From Chromera velia (taxonomy: Eukaryota): a stretch of DNA of 54,204 nt. Shown here one piece after another: positions 1,307 through 54,204 of this stretch. Position 1 is the first letter of the stretch; the number at the start of each line of letters is the position of its first letter. Location of the stretch: contig JAHBMJ010000194.1 of NCBI GenBank assembly GCA_018398765.1, positions 1-54,204 of the forward strand, written 5' to 3'. Both the position numbers and the translations under genes were made by a program. The notes under the pieces were generated by a model. It had not been told where the DNA came from. It saw only the letters and a list, made by a program, of their open reading frames with translations, and ran no database searches.

Positions 1307-38970
<37,664 letters not shown>

Positions 38971-44773: not shown

Positions 44774-45787
44774 CAAGAAGACTCACATTTACACTGTGCA
44801 GGTGCATGCGCACGCGTACACAAACGCAGGCAAAGGTGAAGACACATACGGTTGCACTTCACATGCACAGAAACGTGCACATGGATGCTTGAAGGCAAAA
44901 ACCCCGACAGACCTGAGTAGAGAACAGAGCCGTCTCGGTAGAAAGCCAGCGAGAAAGGCGAAGACACTTCCTCGGCATTGTCCATCGGCATGAAAGACCC
45001 GCACAGAACTCCCGTAGAAGCAGACCACAAGTGCACCTGCAAAACCACCCATTGACGAGAAGCTTACCAATGAGCGATGGACAGCCGCACAGAAACCTAT
45101 TGATCAGGAACCCATCCTCGTTGGAGCTGCATTTATTCGAGGCTCACCCGATTTCTATTGCAAAAAGTATTTGCCAAGACTTAGCATGTATCACACACAT
45201 CAAATTTTATCCCTGCGTGCCCGAAGAGAAGTGAACGAAGAATTTTGCTTTTATGAATCAACGCGACCACACAAAACACCAAAAAGACGAGAGAGAACCA
45301 TATCCGCGTCAAGATTCTCGTTCACACAGTCCACATGGACCTGAAACCAGCCAGGCAGAATGCTACAAAGCAGTTGGTCATTTGATCAGTAAGCCAGTGA
45401 AGGCAGGCAGTCAGTCAGTCAGTCAGTCAATCAGTCAGCCGGGCTGCCGGCCAGCGAGCAAGTCAGTCGGTGGTCAAAGAGCAAGACAGCGACTGCTGAC
45501 TGGCTGGCAACCGACAGCCAACCTAAGCAAAACACAGTTTTTTGTGGCATCCTGTATTGTTGCGTTTGATTGCTCTAGACAGATGTACAGAAGAAGTTTA
45601 TGCAAGAAAGTCCTGCATAAACTGACGGGCTGTCCACGTGCAGCACACGCGAAGACACAGCTGCTCGGGTCCTCCCATTTCATCTGCGGAAGCCAGCAGC
45701 AGTCTGCGATTCCCTCAGGCTCAGCAATCGCAGCCCAGGGAAGAAGGGGGGTTGCTTGGGGTTGCTCTGCAGAGCCTTGAAGGGCGT

Positions 45788-45822
<35 letters not shown>

Positions 45823-46248
45823 CATGTACTCAGGGCTGGTACGTTCGCGAGTCTGTGTGTGTGAGAGAGAGAGAGTCGGTAACTACGCGTGAGTGACTAA
45901 GGACCTCGGTGAGCATCTCTCTCACACATATACACTGCAAGACTTTGCGTGTGCAGCTTACAAATAGAATTAAGATAAGACGGGACAGGAATAGACGGAT
46001 GGCGAGACGGCTAGAGACGGAAGAAGAAGGAACGAGACGGCAGCGGCAAGTGAAGAGATGGTGGAGGAAGAATTCTCACCGATCGTTTGTGCGGGGAGTG
46101 CGAACAACCGCACGCAAGCATCCTCGCTCACTGTGAGGATGGCGGATCCGTCGGGCGACCACAAACTTCTCTTAATGAAATTGTTCTCCCCCCCCGTGAA
46201 TTTGGGGTCGAAGGGAGCGACAGACTCATGGAGAAGGGAGAGCGGCAT
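41196..46248 (-). CDS. WRAP53: Telomerase Cajal body protein 1 (TCAB1/WRAP53/WDR79, WD40), 9 exons: 46248-46080, 45787-45627, 45036-44913, 44679-44312, 43947-43907, 43547-43298, 42926-42868, 42245-42014, 41279-41196 (~495 aa)
   Basis: [32 protein letters not shown]...[82 protein letters not shown] and NALRVW follow the TCAB1 motif order; exon lengths sum to 1488 nt in frame; start could extend to ATG 46327 via a 43-nt intron. Confidence 0.88.
41283..41602. repeat. Compound (CA)n/(GA)n/(GAC)n microsatellite in the last TCAB1 intron
   Basis: Direct reading. Confidence 0.95.
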
Positions 46249-46419
46249 TTTCCCTTTCAAACCCAGTTGGAGAGCAGGGGGCGTTGGCTCACATACCAGC
46301 TCTCAAAGAGACGGGTTCGGAGTTCATAGATCTGGAAGAGCACAATGAGAGTTCACATTGAAGATCATTGAAGCGCTTAGTTCTAGCTGTACGTCAGAAT
46401 CATTTGAGATGAGAGCTAT

Positions 46420-46700
46420 ACCCCCGCGCGCGTCCCGCGCGTTGCTAACCGCCGGGCCGCGGGCTCCGCGCGTCCCGCGCGCGATGATTGACTAGCCAAA
46501 AAATGATGATTGAGGTTTTTGTTATGCATGCCGCGTCCCCGTGTATGCCAAAAAATGATGATTAAAAGGTTGTGCGCATGCATCAACCATGCACTTATTC
46601 CCGATTTTTTGGGGGGAAAAACATTTTGAATTGTAGTTTGCATATATATATGCACTATGCCGCCTCCGCTACGCTCCTGCGGTATGCCGGGGCCTAGCAA
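46420..46700. promoter_or_regulatory. Putative TCAB1 promoter: CGCG-rich block, duplicated gccaaaaaatgatgatt, GCATGC words
   Basis: ccgcgcgtcccgcgcg-like motif twice in 46421-46483; gccaaaaaatgatgatt at ~46495 and ~46547; 170-450 bp upstream of the ATG. Confidence 0.5.
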
Positions 46701-47229
46701 GGCTAAAACCGATGAGTCTGTACTTAGAGACAATCATATGATATTATACTGACTAGGCTAGATCTGCTTGATCCTCATATATGGGGATGCAACTTACATA
46801 ACAAATTCTTCAATTATCATCAAAACAAAACCCTCAATCACCATTACGCTCAATCATCAGAGATAATACAAAATAAATCGTGACTCTGAAATTTAAGTTT
46901 GAATCTATTATATAGAGACCCCTCTAAATACTTTTGAAACTAATTAAAACTAATCATGAAGATTAAAGACAAGTCTGCCATCTTTAAGCGATCGAACCGT
47001 TTTAAACAAATAGTCTGTTGATCAGTATTATGATCAGTATTTAACAGCCTCACCAGTTAGGTTTGATTCAACTTGAAAGGGTCTGATTTTCTCGGTTGGA
47101 TCGGGTTGATTTGAGCCAAGGGCAATTCTCAGCTGTAATCGGCAGTGACTTTCTCATTAGCCAAGCTGTATGCCACACCATGCCACACCATGCCACACCA
47201 TGCGCCGCCCCGCATCGCAATATGCCTCC

Positions 47230-48816
47230 ATGAGCGGCTGAAGAAAAAGGAAAAAGATCTGAGGGCGGGAGACAGAAAGACGGAGGCAGATGACAGGAGC
47301 GCCACCGAAGTGGAGGTACACGTATTCAACTTAATAATAATTCAAGTGAGGCCTGAAAGCGTAGGGAGACAAGTGAATGGCTGACACTGTCAGCTGAAGG
47401 CCGAAAGAGAAGAAACGTGAGCTGAGGGCAGGAGACAGAAAGGTAGATGCAGAAAGCCGTAGATCGCAAGAGCAGAGAGGGCGCAGAACAGAGGTAGAAG
47501 CTAAGAAATGATATTATGATCAAAGGACTAAAATAAGAGGGAGAAAAGGAAGGGGCTCGTAGCAGAATGTAGCAGAGGGCTCGAGGGGGCTGGTCCCCAG
47601 GAAGAAAAGAAATGCTGCATGGAAGAGGCAGAATGCACCCTGAACACGATAGGCACAATTAAAGGGAGAGCCAGGTAGCGGAAGCAGAAAGCTTTCAGCA
47701 CAAAGGTAAAAGTGGAGGCAGAGGAATACGAGTGAAGGGCTGAAGCAAAGGGATTTAAACCGAGAACGGGCGGCTGGCGGCTGGAAGAGAAAGAACGCAA
47801 CCTGAACACGATCTAGGCGCAAAGGGGGGGAGAGGTAGCGGAACGAGAAAAAACGCAGCACATAGATGGAGGTGCAGGGATATAAATGACGGCTGAAGCG
47901 AAAGGGGAGCAAGCGAATGGCTGGCAACAGAAGGCTGGAAGAGAAGGAATAAGACCTGAGGGCGGGAGACAGAAAGAGGGAGGCAAGTGACGGGAGACAA
48001 AAGACCGCAACGCCAAAGTGGAGGTACAGGCATTCAAGTGAGGCCTGAAAGCGGAGGGAGAAGAGAAGCGAATCTAGCAAGCGAATGGCTGACACTGTCA
48101 GCTGAAGGCCGAAAGAGAAGAAACGTGAGCTGAGGGCGGGAGACAGAAAGGTAGATGCAGAAAGCCGTAGATCGCAAGAGCAGAGAGGGCGCAGAACAGA
48201 GGTAGAAGCTAAGAAATGATATTATGATCAAAGGATTAAAATAAGAGGGAGAAAAGGAAGGGGCTCGTAGCAGAATGTAGCAGAGGGCTCGAGAGGGCTG
48301 GTCCCTAGGAAGAAAAGAAATGCTGCATGGAAGAGGCAGAATGCACCCTGAACGCGATAGGCACAAACGGAGAGGCAGGTAGCGGAAGCAGAAAGCTTTC
48401 AGCACAAAGGGAAAGGTGGAGGCAGAGGAATGCGAGTGAAGGGCTGAAGCAAAGGGATTTAAACAGAGAACGGGCGGCTGGCGGCTGGAAGAGAAAGAAC
48501 GCAACCTGAACACGATCTAGGCGCAAAGGGGGGGAGAGGTAGCGGAACGAGAAAAAGCGCAGCACATAGATGGAGGCGCAGGGACATAAATGACGGCTGA
48601 AGCGAAAGGGAGGCAAGCGAATGGCTGGCAGCAGAAGGCTGGAAGAGAAGGAATAAGACTTGAGGGCGGGAGACAGAAAGACGGAGGCAGCTGACGGGAG
48701 AAAAAAGACCGCACCGCCGAAGTGGAGGTACAGGCATTCAAGTGAGGGCTGCAAGCGGAGGGAGAGAAGCGAATCTAGCAAGCGAATGGCTGACACTGTC
48801 AGCTGAAGGCCGAAAG
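47230..48816. repeat. ~700-bp purine-rich tandem repeat (~2.3 copies) built from four diverged ~155-220-bp subunits
   Basis: cactgtcagctgaaggccgaaag at ~47385, ~48094, ~48795; ttcaagtgagg at ~47341, ~48033, ~48736. Confidence 0.9.
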
Positions 48817-49825
48817 CAAAGAAGGTTCCCGGAAGAATGAGACTACAGCCCGTTTTCGTGTTCTTGAACATCAGTGTTATTGAACCCGTACCAATTAATC
48901 AATTCAGCTGTTGGCTTGTGTGCTGTGTAGTGCCGGGATATGTGGCTTATGGACGTTGGACCTGGAGGTCTGCAATGCCGGCTGTCTGCTCAGACTCTGC
49001 TGATGTCTGCCTGTCAAGGTCAGACAAATGGTCTTCAATATATAGATGTCCGTTGTAGGTGAGTGCCTCGAGTCGATGCATGCATATGGACGCCCGAGCG
49101 TACGCGCGCGTACATATACGTACGCACGCGCGTGCCGGTGATCCGCAAAAGTTTATGTAAAATGTGGAAATCTTCTGGGGCCTCTTTGGTTGTTCATGCA
49201 TGTGGATGTCGCCTCGGAGGGCAAAGCAGACGGACTTACCGCACGTACTCTTGAGAGGTGTGTGTCTCTATTTTTGTGACAAAACAACGTAACATTTTTT
49301 CTGCCGGAACGCGTATAGAGGGTCTGAACTAGACAGATACCGAGGCCCTGGGCCCCGGCATATATGCATGTATGAATATAATGATCGATTCCCGATCGAT
49401 CGAGGGGATGCATGGATGAACGCGTACAATTGACCATGCATGCACTGCTTGGATGCGCATGGTTTCAAGTTCGCTTGCCTTCTCTCGTCCGAACATGAGT
49501 CTCTCGAGGCACCTGATTTCTTTTTACTTTGACTCTACGTTACCTCCTCGGTCACCGATCAACTGTTGCTTGCAATCGATTGTACAGGTCCGCATGCATG
49601 TATGCAATCTGTCGATAGAACTCGGTGTATAGTTACGTCTGCAGCACGGTCTGCTGTATCTCTGCGACAACAAGTACCTTTCTTTTTCCATTCTTGCACG
49701 AGCCGGCGATATTGGACGCATCGAGAAAAGAACCAAGCAAACGAAGCGTCAAAAAGTGCGCGTATTCTTTTCTTCTGCATACTCAAATTGCAGAACATAC
49801 ATAGGTCAGACTGATTTTGAAATCG

Positions 49826-50623
49826 ATGTGGCCAGACCAAGACCCGTCATCAGGATGGCCGCAGCCTCCTCCCCCTCCTCAGCTGGCCCGCCTTAGAAGC
49901 GATGACAAGGTGGCCGAGCTTTCCGACGAGGGTGTTCTTGTGAGAAGGCCTGTGGCAATGGATAGAGTGAAGGACCTGAGGGCGGTCATTTTCTGCTACA
50001 ATGAGCTGCTGTTCGGGACAACCAAACTCGACAATACGAATATGGGAGAAGACTTCCGAAAGTTCCAAAAAGTAGCAGAGGAATGTGTGAAGAAGCACAC
50101 GAGCCTGGCAAATAAACGTGACCCAACGAGTTCAAGTTCAATCTCGATTGTTTACTTCTTCGTGTCGGCGGAACCTCATGAGAGATGCATCGAGGTGGCA
50201 CGCCAACTCGAGCTCGGCGGTTCGGTCCAGCACAGTGACTGTCTGGACCCAAACATTTCACAACCCGACAGCAAGCACATTCCAGCTGATGAGCTAATCT
50301 CCAAAGGCGTCAGCGTGGTTTCCGACTGCACTCCGCACCAGAAAGCTCAGGTTGTGGAGGGCATTCAGAAAGAGTGCAAAGGGAAAGTGATGTACATCGG
50401 AAAAGACAGCGGCGATGTTTTGGCGTTCCAAGGGAGTGATGTCTCTCTTTGCTACCAATTCCCAGCCCATGACCCTCACGCTCTTTCCGAAGTTGACGGA
50501 ATTCTCGTGAAGCCCGACTGGAGGCCAATCGAAAGGTTCTTTGAGGTGGCGACTTCTGACCCTGTAGGAGAAGAGGAAGAGGGTCCTGGAGAAAAGTGCA
50601 AATGCATATGTGCAGTGATGTAG
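49826..50623 (+). CDS. 265-aa stand-alone, catalytically degenerate P-type ATPase P-domain (HAD fold) with C-terminal CaaX (CKCICAVM)
   Basis: Intronless ORF; GVLVRRPVAMDRVKDLRAVIFCYNELL aligns to GVLVR..A.E.LG....VFDKTGTL; VSAE..RCIEVARQLEL to TGD..TA.AIA..LGI; SDCTPHQKAQVVEGIQ to ARxxPEQK; VMYIGKDSGDVLAFQGSDVSL to VAMxGDGxNDAPAL..ADVGI; EVDGILVKPDWRPI to AADIVL...F..I. Confidence 0.8.
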   Translation: MWPDQDPSSGWPQPPPPPQLARLRSDDKVAELSDEGVLVRRPVAMDRVKDLRAVIFCYNELLFGTTKLDNTNMGEDFRKFQKVAEECVKKHTSLANKRDPTSSSSISIVYFFVSAEPHERCIEVARQLELGGSVQHSDCLDPNISQPDSKHIPADELISKGVSVVSDCTPHQKAQVVEGIQKECKGKVMYIGKDSGDVLAFQGSDVSLCYQFPAHDPHALSEVDGILVKPDWRPIERFFEVATSDPVGEEEEGPGEKCKCICAVM

Positions 50624-50937
50624 GTAAAACAATTGTTGGATTAGAAGGAGCTGTGTCCTTTCGTCCTCTCATCTGTGTTTCAGAATATGTCTTCTTTCAA
50701 CTTTAAACGTATCTTTTGCTTGATGGCAGACCTCAGTCTTGCATCTTTCACACCTTTCTGTCATTTCTGTTTATTCTTCTGCCATCGCAATATTCAATCG
50801 ACGTGCGAGCCTAGACTCACTTCTTTAGCCGATCTGTCTAAGAAAGCTTAAGTCTGTCTCTCAGTCTGCTTGCCTGCCTGGCTGGCTGTTTGTCTAAAAG
50901 AAGGTGAAAAAGAAGAGAGGAAGTGATCTATTGTACC

Positions 50938-50960
50938 TGTCGGTCTGTCTGTCTGTCTGC

Positions 50961-50993
<33 letters not shown>

Positions 50994-51030
50994 AGTCAGT
51001 CAGTCAGTCAGTCAGTCAGTCAGTCAGTCA
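50938..51030. repeat. (GTCT)n(CAGT)n tetranucleotide microsatellite
   Basis: Direct reading. Confidence 0.9.
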
Positions 51031-53398
51031 GAAGAAAGAAAGAAACAGAAGAGAATGAAGCAGGAGAAAAAGGGAAAGAAAAGACGATATGGTCTGTCTG
51101 CCTGTCTGCACCCACACGCATACACGCAACCACACACACACTCACACGCATACGCATTCTTTCCATCGGGTCGGGGGGTCAAGAGATCCAACCAGAAGAG
51201 AGGGATTGTTGCTGCTGTTGATGCCATCGACTGAAAATGGGAACCCCAGAAGAAGAAATGAAGATATGCAGGGAACCCCAGAAGAAGAGAGAATGCTGAA
51301 CACAGACCTTGGAGTGAAGGACCATAAGCGAAAGGAAATGAAGAGAAAGGAGGGCAAGAGCGTAAGCCTGCACTGGGCGAGGAAAGGCAACATAGCACGC
51401 TCAAGGCCTGGGCCTCCGGTACTCTTCCACTGAGAGAGCGCGCCAAGAGAAAAACAAAAAAAAACTGAAGAAAATGAAAGGAAGGTTCTGTCTGTCTGTC
51501 TGCCTGCCTGTCGGTCTGTCTGGTTGCTAAGACCGTTGCTTGCCATTGAAGTTGCCAAAATAAGACAGAAAAAAAACGGGAAAAAAATTGAGAAAGAGAA
51601 AAAAGAAAAACAAAAACAATATAGTCTGTCTGTATAGTCTGTCTGTATAGTCTGTCTGACTTAATTTGTTGAAAAACCAGGTTATGAACAATCATTGTCA
51701 TACATTGTTAAGTATAGTCAATCATTTTTTTATATAGAATAGTATAGCATAGTGTAGAATTGTATCCACGCTAGTGGTCGGACTGTCGTCCACGTCTCTT
51801 AAAGTTGTTTCATTCATCAAGAAAACAGTGAAAACTAGCAAAAACGAGTACTAGAACGAGTAAAAACTGATTATTAAAACTTATAACACAAATAATTAGT
51901 TTAAATTAAGTATAACTTGAATATATACATGTGTGTAACATAAAAAAAAAAAAAAAATCTGTGTTGTAAGTGCCTTCCACTTCGCTTTCCGGGACTATGC
52001 CTTTCACTAAAAACTCGGCCCTGCGAAAGGCTGAATTTATGCTATGCATATGCCAGGTGTTCAAAACCCGGGCTTTTAATTTTTTCTGGGGGGGGGAGGA
52101 TTCCGTGACAAATTTAAAGCTGCATGTTTTTTTCCCACGGGGGGGGAGGTCCACTAGGGTCCACCGGGGTCCGCGGACCATATGTGCTAGGCCAGTATGG
52201 GTTAGCTGGCCGGCGTGTGTTAATCGTGCACTCCTCATTTTTCTTACGTTCCGGTAGCTTTCCGGGGCCGTTTGTAAGCTTGCTTGTGTCAGATGTTGGT
52301 GAAGGGTCACCGACGTGAAGGGCCTAACACGTACGTATGGTCGAAATACCCATGGTGGTGGTAGGAGTCACTGTTGATGCTAAGCCACGACCCCGGTCTA
52401 CAATATAAGTCCTCCAGGGTAGTTTTTTCTTTTAGAAAAAAATAATATATGGTAAACTAACTAAAATTTGCTGTAATTAGTATTAATCAGTATTAATTCA
52501 CAGTTTCTTTATTTTTTTATTTTTCTATCTATGAAAGTCAGTTACAGGTAAAGCCCAGCTCTGTAAGTACATAGTTATTTTAAGAGTCACTCAAATAGAT
52601 TGGTTTAGATCGGTTACTGTAGGGTCCCTAGCTAAGGTCCAAATAAAACGTTTTACTGCTCTTGTAATCTTGCTTACTGCATGCACAGCCGTTTTTGCTT
52701 GCTAACTCTCTTTAATGAGTCCCTTACAATTCTTAACAATTCTTCGTACCACGGCTTGGAACGCTGGAGCCAACATGCCATGCAACGAGATCACAAGCGT
52801 TGCAAATTGCCGCATCGACTCTTTGTACGGCTTCCCACACGCCCTCCTCTTTCCTTATGCCGTATGGGGCGTCCCACATATCGTCCCACACGGTGGTTCC
52901 GGCATGCCCTGGCCATGCACCTCGATCGCTCACGCATGTGCTGGCGCGGGGGCCACGGCTGATTCAATCTGATCGAACGAAAATTGCATCGGGGCTGTGC
53001 GGCCTCCGTCTCCGATCGATGTCTGTTGAATGCGGTTGAGTGAAAACGACTGGTGCACGATGGTGCATCCACATGGCTGCCAGAGCTTGCCATGCAGACA
53101 CAGCTCAGCTCCTTCATCTGCTCTATTTGGACCTTATTTACAGGTGCTCTGTGCTCTCTCGGCAGGAATCTCTCGAGCAGTTCTCCATTCGCCAGGTAAA
53201 TATTTGACATGACATGTGCTGTAGCCGTCTCCTGATCTTCCACCGAGTAAAAATAATCTAATATTCTTTTATGCCTGGTTGCTAAAATCAAAGTAGCTCC
53301 AGCACCAGGACAGGCAACTTCAGAGCCCGTGACGCTTCTTCCTGCTCTTCTGTCCGTCTACCTGCCTGCCAAGAACATATTCCGGCCCATATTGCGAA

Positions 53399-54085
53399 AT
53401 GACGCGGAAGGAACCTCTCTTGCAGGGAGAGAGCTCACACACTGGACACTCCAGTCTTCCAGGGCACTCTGTCTCCCAGGCCCACGGGCTTCTTCACAAA
53501 AGGTCCCCCCTCTGGTGGAGAATTTTGCACTCGCTTGGGTTTACATGCGGAGGAACAACTTTCATTGCTGGGAGTGTCTGCTTCTTTTTTCCGAACTGGG
53601 TGGAGGGCGCATGGTGAGCCTGCACCATTGTTTGTGCTCGTTTGTGTTTCCACTTTCCATCTTCCCCAGGAAGCTCATTGTTATACACTGCTCCTTTCTT
53701 CAGGGGCGCCTGTTGGGCCTGGACATGTTTCTGGCTTTGCATGTGAGTTTAAGGCCCTAGGACCAAGCGTGAGTATGACAGAATGACAGCTGCACAAGAC
53801 AGAGATGTGAGTGGACGGCCAAAGTTATTAACGAAATTTGTAGCCAACACTCCCGATGGTTTGACCTCTTAGAAACATTACATGCATGTTCATGTGGAGG
53901 CAGGACAGGAGGTATTCTCGTGTTTTGTTGTGGCATAAAGATGAGTTTTTTTGCGAATCTGCTTCTGTGTGTAGGTGGAGCGCGTTGCTGTACACAGTGG
54001 GGTCCCTCGGCTTTCTGCTCGTTGATGTAATGGAATTCTTCACTTTTACCGATTGCGTATTTCTTCGGACGAACATCCTCTGCAG
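53399..54085 (+). CDS. 5' part of a multipass membrane protein, YrhK-like; exons 53399-53613 and 53975-54085, continuing beyond the window
   Basis: Spliced TG|G junction gives WWRILHSLGFTCGGTTFIAGSVCFFFPNWVEGAWWSALLYTVGSLGFLLVDVMEFFTF..LRTNILC; paired helices with G..F.AGS..F and LY..GS.GF patterns; gtgagc and gtcagt donors. Confidence 0.65.
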
Positions 54086-54137
54086 GTCAGTGTGTGTTTC
54101 TTTCCAGGCGCTGCTGAGGACGCTCCTGTGTGTGTGT

Positions 54138-54186
<49 letters not shown>

Positions 54187-54204
54187 AGAGGGGGAGGGGG
54201 AGGG

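What the first reader, a model, noticed from the sequence alone, without database searches (positions are those of the whole stretch)
49826..50623. Prenylated, enzymatically dead stand-alone P-type ATPase P-domain
Seen: the two halves of a P-type ATPase phosphorylation domain are joined directly, with the N-domain replaced by a short linker and no A-domain or TM helices. The catalytic motifs are systematically substituted (DKTGT to CYNEL, TGD to SAE, GDGxND to GKDSGD) while the PxQK lysine and hydrophobic core positions remain. The ORF is intact and ends CKCICAVM-stop. Known: CaaX ending in Met is a farnesylation signal and nearby cysteines are typical palmitoylation sites. Inference: a pump fragment re-anchored to membranes by lipid, acting as a pseudoenzyme regulator, scaffold or sensor (Cys replaces the phospho-Asp). 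I know of no described family like this.
Basis: partly seen in the sequence, partly recalled or inferred. Interest (0 to 1): 0.82.

Follow-up and report, generated by a model that had tools for sequence, protein, structure and literature searches.

The report
Lipid-tailed dead ion-pump core domain
A transcribed, single-exon gene, likely from the alga Chromera velia, encodes only the catalytic core domain of a P-type ion pump, without the residues needed for pump chemistry and with a predicted lipid-anchor tail, so a pump fragment has likely been reused as a membrane-tethered binding protein; no relative was found and the function is untested.

Summary
Window 49826-50623 (+) is an intact 265-codon ORF. 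Contigs from five runs cover it unspliced, and an in-frame stop lies 24 nt upstream of the ATG, so it is not the last exon of a longer gene. Three kinds of evidence show a P-type ATPase P-domain: NCBIfam TIGR01494 (E 7e-4), an ESM Atlas model matching pumps (TM about 0.73), and my profiles, which place the phospho-Asp on Cys57 without using the motif. The N-domain, A-domain and membrane helices are absent. The dead motifs are real but less thorough than claimed: the nucleophile and the Mg-binding Asp are lost, while Ser114, Lys173 and Asp197 remain. The CaaX tail with two extra Cys is the only strict one among 2,204 frame ends in the window. Identity to pumps is about 18% with an open frame, which neutral decay almost never gives (0 of 3,000 simulations at 25%). 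No homologue was found among 1.84 billion representatives. The parent subfamily is unresolved (weakly P1B). Best reading: a lipid-anchored pseudoenzyme that binds a phosphorylated ligand at a membrane. Lipidation, ligand and function are untested.

The parts
49486..49825 (+). 5' untranslated region as covered by run contigs (about 340 nt, unspliced; four short upstream ATG frames, all closed before the main ATG)
   Evidence: contigs start at 49486-49538 in five runs; uATGs at 49495, 49594, 49598, 49602; contigs cannot fix the true start
49802..49804 (+). in-frame TAG 24 nt upstream of the ATG; blocks any N-terminal extension, also after a splice at the ttgcag ending 49793
49826..50623 (+). single-exon ORF, 265 aa (P0001)
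   Evidence: the exact protein is held by UniRef, EukProt and MetaClust as a one-member cluster
49826..49906 (+). residues 1-27: Pro-rich, probably disordered N-terminus with a run of five prolines; replaces the A-domain and M1-M4
   Evidence: sequence; no secondary structure in the model; docking role is inference
49907..49993 (+). residues 28-56: remnant of the stalk after M4 and the first P-domain helix and strand
   Evidence: P1B PSSM 17.4 bits, 0 of 2,000 shuffles; HMM domain 29-56
49994..50017 (+). residues 57-64: motif I, CYNELLFG in place of DKTGTLT; Cys57 sits at the phospho-Asp position
   Evidence: register; alignment A1
50018..50041 (+). residues about 65-72: short linker where pumps carry the N-domain
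   Evidence: Cys57 to Ser114 is 57 residues against 143-339 in 88 pumps; pLDDT under 50 at 64-69
50165..50173 (+). residues 114-116: motif II, SAE in place of TGD (hydroxyl and acid kept)
50216..50305 (+). residues 131-160: insertion of P2/P3-like length between the motif II helix and the Lys helix
   Evidence: motif II to motif IV is 78 residues; 71-86 in P2/P3, 44-67 in P1B, 107-200 in P4
50342..50344 (+). Lys173, the conserved phosphate-binding lysine (PHQK)
   Evidence: invariant in 51 of 51 rows of A1
50399..50416 (+). residues 192-197: motif IV, GKDSGD in place of GDGxND; Mg-binding Asp replaced by Lys193, Asn by Gly196, last Asp197 kept
50555..50620 (+). residues 244-265: acidic linker tail that replaces M5-M10
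   Evidence: low pLDDT; outside the pump-aligned range 28-248
50597..50620 (+). CKCICAVM: CaaX box (Cys262) with Cys258 and Cys260 upstream; predicted farnesylation and palmitoylation sites
   Evidence: 1 of 2,204 frame ends in the window fit C-[AVILM]-[VIL]-[MSQL]; 3 of 81,192 ten-mers fit it with two more Cys; modification untested
50624..50931 (+). 3' untranslated region as covered by contigs, running into TCTG/TCAG microsatellites

Best explanation
The gene encodes the P-domain of a P-type pump on its own, and this domain likely works as a non-catalytic binding module that is predicted to hang on the inner face of a membrane by a farnesyl group plus one or two palmitates. Shown: the fold, the loss of the N-, A- and membrane domains, the loss of the phospho-Asp and the Mg-binding Asp, transcription as one exon, and a CaaX tail beyond chance. 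Inferred: it cannot be phosphorylated from ATP, because it has neither the Asp nor the domain that delivers ATP. The phosphate half of the pocket survives (Ser114, Lys173, Asp197), and Lys193 stands where the Mg-binding Asp was and could supply the positive charge itself. With the N-domain gone the pocket is open. It would therefore bind, but not turn over, a phosphate-bearing ligand at the membrane (a phospholipid head group or a phosphorylated protein) and pass this on through the Pro-rich N-terminus. The lipid tail would keep the domain where the pump's helices once held it. The intronless gene probably arose long ago from a pump gene copy, by internal deletion and gain of a new tail.
For: Homology of both halves; all five anchored blocks score above random for at least one pump set, best z 3.1-6.7. 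ESM Atlas model pTM 0.75; all 10 structure rows carry P-type ATPase or HAD labels, TM 0.71-0.73 over about 172 residues. The 6 PDB sequence hits for residues 155-245 at E up to 10 are all P-type ATPases, though weak (E 0.23-1.5). Unspliced contigs in five runs from two studies; the four runs laid on the wider stretch skip a neighbouring GT-AG intron, so they hold RNA. Open frame at about 18% identity to pumps, while neutral substitution leaves the frame open in 0 of 3,000 runs at 25% and 2 of 3,000 at 35%. Four differences between study P1 and the window all lie in the UTRs (P 0.031). CaaX statistics.
Against: No homologue: 1 hit (itself) in 1.84 billion representatives, none among near-length or longer candidates, none in metagenome or viral contigs, no second copy at 80% DNA identity in four runs. 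So nothing shows that the CaaX, Cys57 or the pocket residues are conserved. Lys173 and Asp197 may be kept for folding only. The tail before the CaaX is acidic, which does not help membrane binding. Six-frame Cys frequency in this window is high (4.9%), and the CaaX was noticed after the fact. Protein expression, lipidation and ligand are untested. Four upstream ATGs could lower translation.
Confidence: 0.45

Rival explanations
1. Pump or transporter regulator: the tethered dead P-domain docks on the A- or N-domain of an intact P-type pump (or another transporter) and inhibits or tunes it, as prenylated PRL pseudophosphatases do with CNNM magnesium transporters.
For: It keeps the P-domain fold including the stalk remnant and would sit in the same place as a pump headpiece. 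PRL-CNNM is a precedent for the logic (PMC10040874, passages). An earlier unverified finding reports a stand-alone actuator domain with a CaaX tail in another genome (e1-7238732).
Against: At about 18% identity the surfaces that contact A and N are unlikely to be kept. No pump gene piece lies in the window. The organism's own pumps were not available, so no direct test was run.
Confidence: 0.15
2. Not dead but rewired: Cys57 is a reactive thiol in the old active site that forms a phosphocysteine, senses redox state, or binds a metal together with nearby His, Cys and acidic residues.
For: Cys57 maps exactly on the nucleophile position. Ser114 and Lys173 would still hold a phosphate. The protein has 10 Cys and 7 His, and its stalk resembles heavy-metal P1B pumps most. 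Long-lived phosphocysteine is known in PRLs, which have a different fold.
Against: HAD chemistry needs Mg held by the motif IV Asp, here Lys193 (established knowledge). I know of no HAD-fold enzyme with a Cys nucleophile (recalled). One Cys in one sequence may be chance. P1B metal sites lie in other domains than P.
Confidence: 0.17
3. A real, folded, selected pseudoenzyme, but the CaaX-like end is incidental or unused and the protein is soluble.
For: The tail is unconserved by default (no homologue), acidic, and Cys codons are common in this genome's random frames. Ten of 2,204 frame ends fit the looser pattern C-x-[VIL]-[MSQAL].
Against: The strict pattern with two more Cys has a background of 3 in 81,192 (one being this tail) and 0 in 200,000 draws from the protein's own composition. 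A lipid anchor makes sense for a domain that lost its helices.
Confidence: 0.12
4. A decaying, transcribed pump retrocopy or fragment with no function.
For: Intronless, orphan, flanked by repeats; very long branch (4.1 substitutions per site against a median tip of 0.23); four upstream ATGs.
Against: The frame is open after about 80% divergence (0 of 3,000 neutral runs at 25% identity, indels ignored). No close parent is detectable although Chromera proteins are in the databases. The N-domain is removed in frame with the fold intact. No poly-A remnant (longest A run 9). No coding difference between study P1 and the window.
Confidence: 0.07

Closest known systems
P-domain of P-type ATPases (TIGR01494; P1B TIGR01525, P2/P3, P4 TIGR01652)
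   Same: Rossmann-like HAD core with the stalk remnant, the order and spacing of motifs I-IV, the PxxK lysine and the last Asp of motif IV. Fold matches.
   Different: No phospho-Asp, no Mg-binding Asp, no N-, A- or membrane domain; ends in a CaaX box; about 18% identical to each of the three pump sets, which are 26-34% identical to one another. Signals for the parent are mixed: stalk P1B, insert length P2/P3, Lys helix P4.
Bacterial stand-alone N-domain-less P-type-like proteins of about 156 aa (the COG4087 'soluble P-type ATPase' label is recalled, not from a call)
   Same: P-domain core without N-, A- or membrane domains; motif I to motif II only 32 residues; 2 of 3 tested hit TIGR01494. 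CYN and SAE resemble their D[YF]N and TAD (the set was selected on the first motif).
   Different: They keep the catalytic Asp, lack the stalk and the insert, and a Cys at -4 occurs in 1 of 63. Their profile does not score P0001 (-0.3 bits, reached by 40 of 2,000 shuffles), so this is probably a parallel solution, not the source.
Degenerate P4-ATPase modules of alveolate P4-guanylate cyclases (PMC13466520, passages and section 2.4.4)
   Same: Alveolate P-type ATPase domains with altered or lost DKTGTLT (Cryptosporidium, P4GC-beta, gregarines, Tetrahymena), suggested there to have supporting roles. P0001's Lys helix and motif IV score highest with P4 (18.6 bits).
   Different: Those keep all four domains and their membrane helices and are fused to a cyclase. 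P0001's stalk and tail do not fit my P4 set.
TMEM94/ERMA (PMC12134183, whole text; contrary view in PMC13322241, search listing only)
   Same: P-type-like architecture with no ATPase activity detected in one study; appears in my fold search (9jjk, Z 12.2).
   Different: Full-length, ten helices, keeps A-, P- and N-like domains; its inactivity is disputed.
PRL/PTP4A pseudophosphatases (PMC10040874, passages)
   Same: Works-like comparison only: a single-domain, CaaX-prenylated protein with a Cys in a phosphate pocket that acts by binding (CNNM transporters).
   Different: Cys-phosphatase fold, not HAD; conserved across eukaryotes; retains slow catalysis.

Membership tests
P-type ATPases | DKTGT motif with phosphorylated Asp (PMC13466520 introduction) | tested here: not met
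   CYNEL at the register fixed by the upstream PSSM
P-type ATPases | P-domain fold and ancestry | tested here: met
   searches agree but rest on a pump-built alignment
P-type ATPases | N-domain inserted after motif I | tested here: not met
   57 residues from Cys57 to Ser114 against 143-339 in 88 pumps
P-type ATPases | A-domain and membrane domain in the same chain | tested here: not met
   single exon, upstream in-frame stop, highest hydropathy 0.70, no pump piece elsewhere in the window
P-type ATPases | TGD, conserved Lys, GDGxND | tested here: not met
   SAE, Lys173 kept, GKDSGD: partly kept, Mg-binding Asp and Asn lost
P1B heavy-metal ATPases (as parent) | groups with P1B in the P-domain | tested here: inconclusive
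   stalk block z 5.5 for P1B against 2.8 and 2.2; other blocks favour P2/P3 or P4; tree places it with P1B at support 54 on a branch of 4.1; no clade test run; no P5 set obtained
Bacterial stand-alone P-type-like proteins | catalytic D[YF]NGT and GNGxND, about 156 aa, profile match | tested here: not met
   -0.3 bits, 40 of 2,000 shuffles as high; hhalign probability 1%
Active HAD phosphatases | Asp nucleophile in motif I and Mg-binding Asp in motif IV (established knowledge) | tested here: not met
   Cys57 and Lys193
CaaX-prenylated proteins | Cys-aliphatic-aliphatic-X at the true C-terminus, X = Met for farnesyltransferase (rule recalled) | tested here: met
   CAVM-stop; stop covered by contigs of X1, X2, X3, X5 without difference; background 68 in 81,192
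CaaX-prenylated proteins | actual prenylation and membrane location | not testable with these tools
   needs labelling or imaging
CaaX-prenylated proteins | CaaX conserved in orthologues | tested here: inconclusive
   no orthologue found

The most novel reading that the evidence does not exclude
A eukaryote has taken a P-type pump apart and re-anchored its P-domain with lipid as a signalling protein in which Cys57, sitting where the phospho-Asp was, acts as a phosphocysteine, redox or metal switch that controls a transporter in trans: a HAD-fold counterpart of PRL. If the CaaX-tailed stand-alone actuator domain noted elsewhere in this scan is real, lipid-anchored single pump domains would be a recurring, undescribed class of pump-derived regulators.
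Probability: 0.15. Interest if true: 0.85.

Novelty: new variant of a known kind. Interest (0 to 1): 0.6.

Why it matters
P-type ATPase P-domains are known almost only as parts of pumps. A version that is cut free, closed up where the N-domain was, stripped of its nucleophile and given a lipid anchor shows that the domain can be reused as a membrane-tethered pseudoenzyme. It is a natural minimal P-domain, which can be expressed and solved to ask what the pocket does without ATP delivery, and whether a Cys can act at the HAD nucleophile position. The value is limited by its being one orphan gene of unknown function in one lineage.

Tried and rejected
Pfam gave only DUF2777 at E 0.13, and phmmer of the whole protein against PDB gave one chance hit (T-cadherin, E 0.039). 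Single-sequence AlphaFold2 failed (pLDDT 37) and its Foldseek search found nothing at E up to 0.001. The second model (pLDDT 73, pTM 0.73) used 50 pump and pump-like rows, so its matches (best Z 17.2, rmsd 3.2, 180 residues, Listeria Ca-ATPase) show compatibility and are not independent. ESM feature hits were all under 0.9 and are leads only. Homologue searches were blank. No whole genome is held, so paralogues and the organism's own pumps could not be searched; laying four runs at 80% likeness showed no second copy, but contigs show presence, not absence. No run is on record as RNA. Stretches without contig cover (46548-47369, 51480-52849) are not used as evidence. Last-exon idea rejected. 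A 23-letter loose end before 49495 in X4 has no AG at the junction and other runs continue through it; not followed up. Descent from the bacterial stand-alone family was considered because CYN and SAE resemble it, and rejected on profile score. An alternative register that reads residues 59-69 as the pump hinge appeared only in a 2%-probability global alignment to P4 and loses to the stalk PSSM. A P5 comparison set could not be built: none of 6 loci was a pump. Rows dropped: 16 of 79 P2/P3, 42 of 61 P1B and 20 of 30 P4 sequences remained after redundancy and anchor filters, and at most 16 per set entered the tree; the P1B and P2/P3 sets are mostly bacterial. Rfam found nothing in 45000-54204. 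Complex prediction was not run: no native partner sequence was available. Literature searches: 'soluble P-type ATPase' 2 papers, 'COG4087' 2, 'P-type ATPase' + 'pseudoenzyme' 1, + 'MJ0968' 0, + 'Chromera' 12, 'prenylated' + 'Chromera' 10, P-type/CaaX/'lacks transmembrane' 48 (25 listed). No title or abstract start seen describes a prenylated stand-alone P-domain; most were seen as listings only. A term search of the review PMC10654040 found no 'soluble', 'prenyl' or 'haloacid'. Subscription papers and supplements were not seen.

Full report
Observation. Window 49826-50623 (+) translates to an intact 265-residue protein, P0001, ending CKCICAVM-stop. The stop-to-stop frame begins at 49805; the TAG at 49802-49804 is in frame, 24 nt before the ATG. 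The exact protein is held by UniRef, EukProt and MetaClust as a cluster of one. The window is eukaryotic and repeat-rich. A large EGF-repeat gene upstream has paralogues at 76% and 66% identity named Chromera velia CCMP2878, so the source is likely Chromera velia or a close relative; this is inference.

Gene structure. Six runs from three studies hold the stretch; none is on record as RNA. The four laid on 46000-54204 all skip a GT-AG intron of the neighbouring gene (53614-53974), so they contain spliced RNA. Continuous contigs cover 49486-50677 (X1), 49538-50931 (X2), 49490-50866 (X3) and 49495-50622 (X4); X5 has two pieces with a 3-nt gap and X6 three short pieces. Five of six runs bridge the ttgcag at 49788-49793 and no joint is listed. 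Even a splice there would meet the in-frame TAG. The gene is a single exon, not the end of a longer pump gene. Profiles of full-length P2/P3, P1B and P4 pumps found no other pump piece among 1,330 six-frame segments of the window; this ORF was the top hit for all three.

Homology. Pfam and whole-protein PDB searches were blank. NCBIfam gave four families for the whole protein, all P-type ATPases: TIGR01494 E 7e-4, TIGR01525 2.8e-3, TIGR01652 0.023, TIGR01511 0.061, all far below their curated cut-offs. The ESM Atlas model (pTM 0.75) matched pump P-domains at TM 0.71-0.73 over about 172 residues in 10 of 10 rows. I collected pumps by motif scans and built profiles. The C-terminal half scored 14.9 (P2/P3), 14.7 (P1B) and 18.6 (P4) bits; 0 of 2,000 shuffles reached any of these. 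The N-terminal half was tested without its motif: a PSSM of the 27 residues before the Asp in 47 P1B pumps peaks at 17.4 bits where Asp maps to Cys57, with the next best place at -9.5 and 0 of 2,000 shuffles as high. The P2/P3 PSSM picks the same place without significance and the P4 PSSM does not. An AlphaFold2 model built on a pump alignment reached pLDDT 73 and matched pumps first, but that test is circular. The single-sequence model failed.

Anatomy. Residues 1-27 are Pro-rich and unstructured. Residues 28-56 are the stalk remnant and first strand. Motif I reads CYNELLFG. A linker of about 8 residues replaces the N-domain: Cys57 to Ser114 is 57 residues, against 143-339 in 88 pumps. Motif II is SAE, the lysine is Lys173, and motif IV is GKDSGD. 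In SERCA numbering (recalled) Asp351, Thr353, Asp703 and Asn706 are lost, Thr625 becomes Ser, and Lys684 and Asp707 are kept. So the protein cannot run the pump's phosphorylation cycle (established knowledge applied to the sequence), but the substitutions are selective: the nucleophile and metal side is gone, the phosphate-holding side remains, and a Lys replaces the Mg-binding Asp. There is no membrane helix (highest 19-residue hydropathy 0.70). An acidic 22-residue tail follows the last helix.

The tail. Of 2,204 stop-terminated frame ends in the window, 1 fits C-[AVILM]-[VIL]-[MSQL], and it is this one; 10 fit a looser pattern. Among 81,192 six-frame ten-mers the strict pattern occurs 68 times, and 3 times with two more Cys in the six residues before it, one being this tail. 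In 200,000 draws from the protein's own composition the counts are 90 and 0. This null already includes the genome's high Cys rate (4.9%). A CaaX ending in Met with upstream Cys is the farnesyl-plus-palmitoyl arrangement of H- and N-Ras (recalled). The pattern was noticed after the fact, and no orthologue confirms it.

Is it under selection? Identity to each pump set is about 18% over 127 anchored columns (best 23.6%), lower than the sets are to each other (26-34%). No protein other than itself scored E up to 0.001 among 1.84 billion representatives, so no close parent is detectable. Random substitution of the 218 pump-like codons leaves the frame open in 19 of 3,000 runs at 50% identity, 2 at 35% and 0 at 25%, ignoring indels. 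The four differences between study P1 and the window lie in the UTRs (P 0.031, weak). A long-selected protein is much likelier than a decaying copy. Against this, it is an orphan, no second copy was seen, and four upstream ATGs precede it.

Origin. The parent is unresolved. The stalk block favours P1B (z 5.5 against 2.8 and 2.2), the insert length and motif II block favour P2/P3, and the Lys helix fits P4 and P2/P3 about equally (z 6.7 and 6.6). A tree puts it among P1B with support 54 on a branch of 4.1 substitutions per site. My P1B and P2/P3 sets are mostly bacterial and I could not assemble P5. A bacterial family of N-domain-less P-type-like proteins of about 156 aa exists and shares the topology, but it keeps its catalytic Asp and its profile does not recognise P0001 (-0.3 bits; 40 of 2,000 shuffles as high).

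Mechanism. My best reading (0.45) is a lipid-anchored pseudoenzyme whose open, vestigial pocket binds a phosphate-bearing ligand at the membrane, with the Pro-rich N-terminus as output. Fold, losses, transcription and tail are shown; lipidation, ligand and output are inferred. Rivals are Cys57 chemistry or metal binding (0.17), regulation of a pump in trans (0.15), a soluble pseudoenzyme with an unused tail (0.12) and a functionless copy (0.07).

Comparison with what is known. It is not a P-type ATPase by the defining features given in PMC13466520 (passages), but it descends from one. Dead or doubtful pump domains are known in alveolate P4-guanylate cyclases (same paper) and TMEM94 (PMC12134183, whole text; disputed by PMC13322241, listing only); these keep their membrane helices. 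PRL phosphatases are prenylated single-domain pseudophosphatases that regulate a transporter (PMC10040874, passages), a working analogy in another fold. Ten searches of the open library found no description of a prenylated stand-alone P-domain; most results were seen as listings only, and subscription journals and supplements are not covered. An earlier unverified note from this scan describes a stand-alone actuator domain with a CaaX tail in another genome (e1-7238732); I could not test it and do not count it as support.

Verdict. This is a new variant of a known kind (a pump-derived pseudoenzyme with an architecture I did not find described), surprising to a P-type ATPase specialist and easy to test, but at present a single orphan gene. 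Interest 0.6.

Noticed in passing
window about 4490-27175 (+): Large multi-exon gene with calcium-binding EGF repeats in at least five ORFs, including a 1,205-codon open stretch at 20854-24471; paralogues of the 25793-27175 ORF are named Chromera velia proteins.
   Followed up: partly
window 47236-48823: Tandem duplication with a period of about 705 bp, copies 96-98% identical, just upstream of the gene; run contigs with many differences lie on it, as for a dispersed repeat.
   Followed up: no
window 53081-54085 (+): Transcribed neighbour gene with a GT-AG intron at 53614-53974 that continues past the window end; two overlapping ORFs tested had no Pfam hit.
   Followed up: partly
L121-L240 (genome contigs): Widespread bacterial proteins of about 156 aa that are P-type-like P-domains without N-domain and with an intact catalytic Asp; about 2,300 stretches match the motif, 63 of 65 complete ones are 130-190 aa.
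   Followed up: partly
window 49495-49814 (+): Four upstream ATG frames (45, 12, 6 and 70 codons) in the 5' UTR; the longest ends 12 nt before the main ATG.
   Followed up: no
whole window: TGCATGCA occurs 18 times against about 1 expected, twice within 750 nt upstream of the ATG (49077, 49437); recalled as an ApiAP2-type motif in apicomplexans.
   Followed up: no
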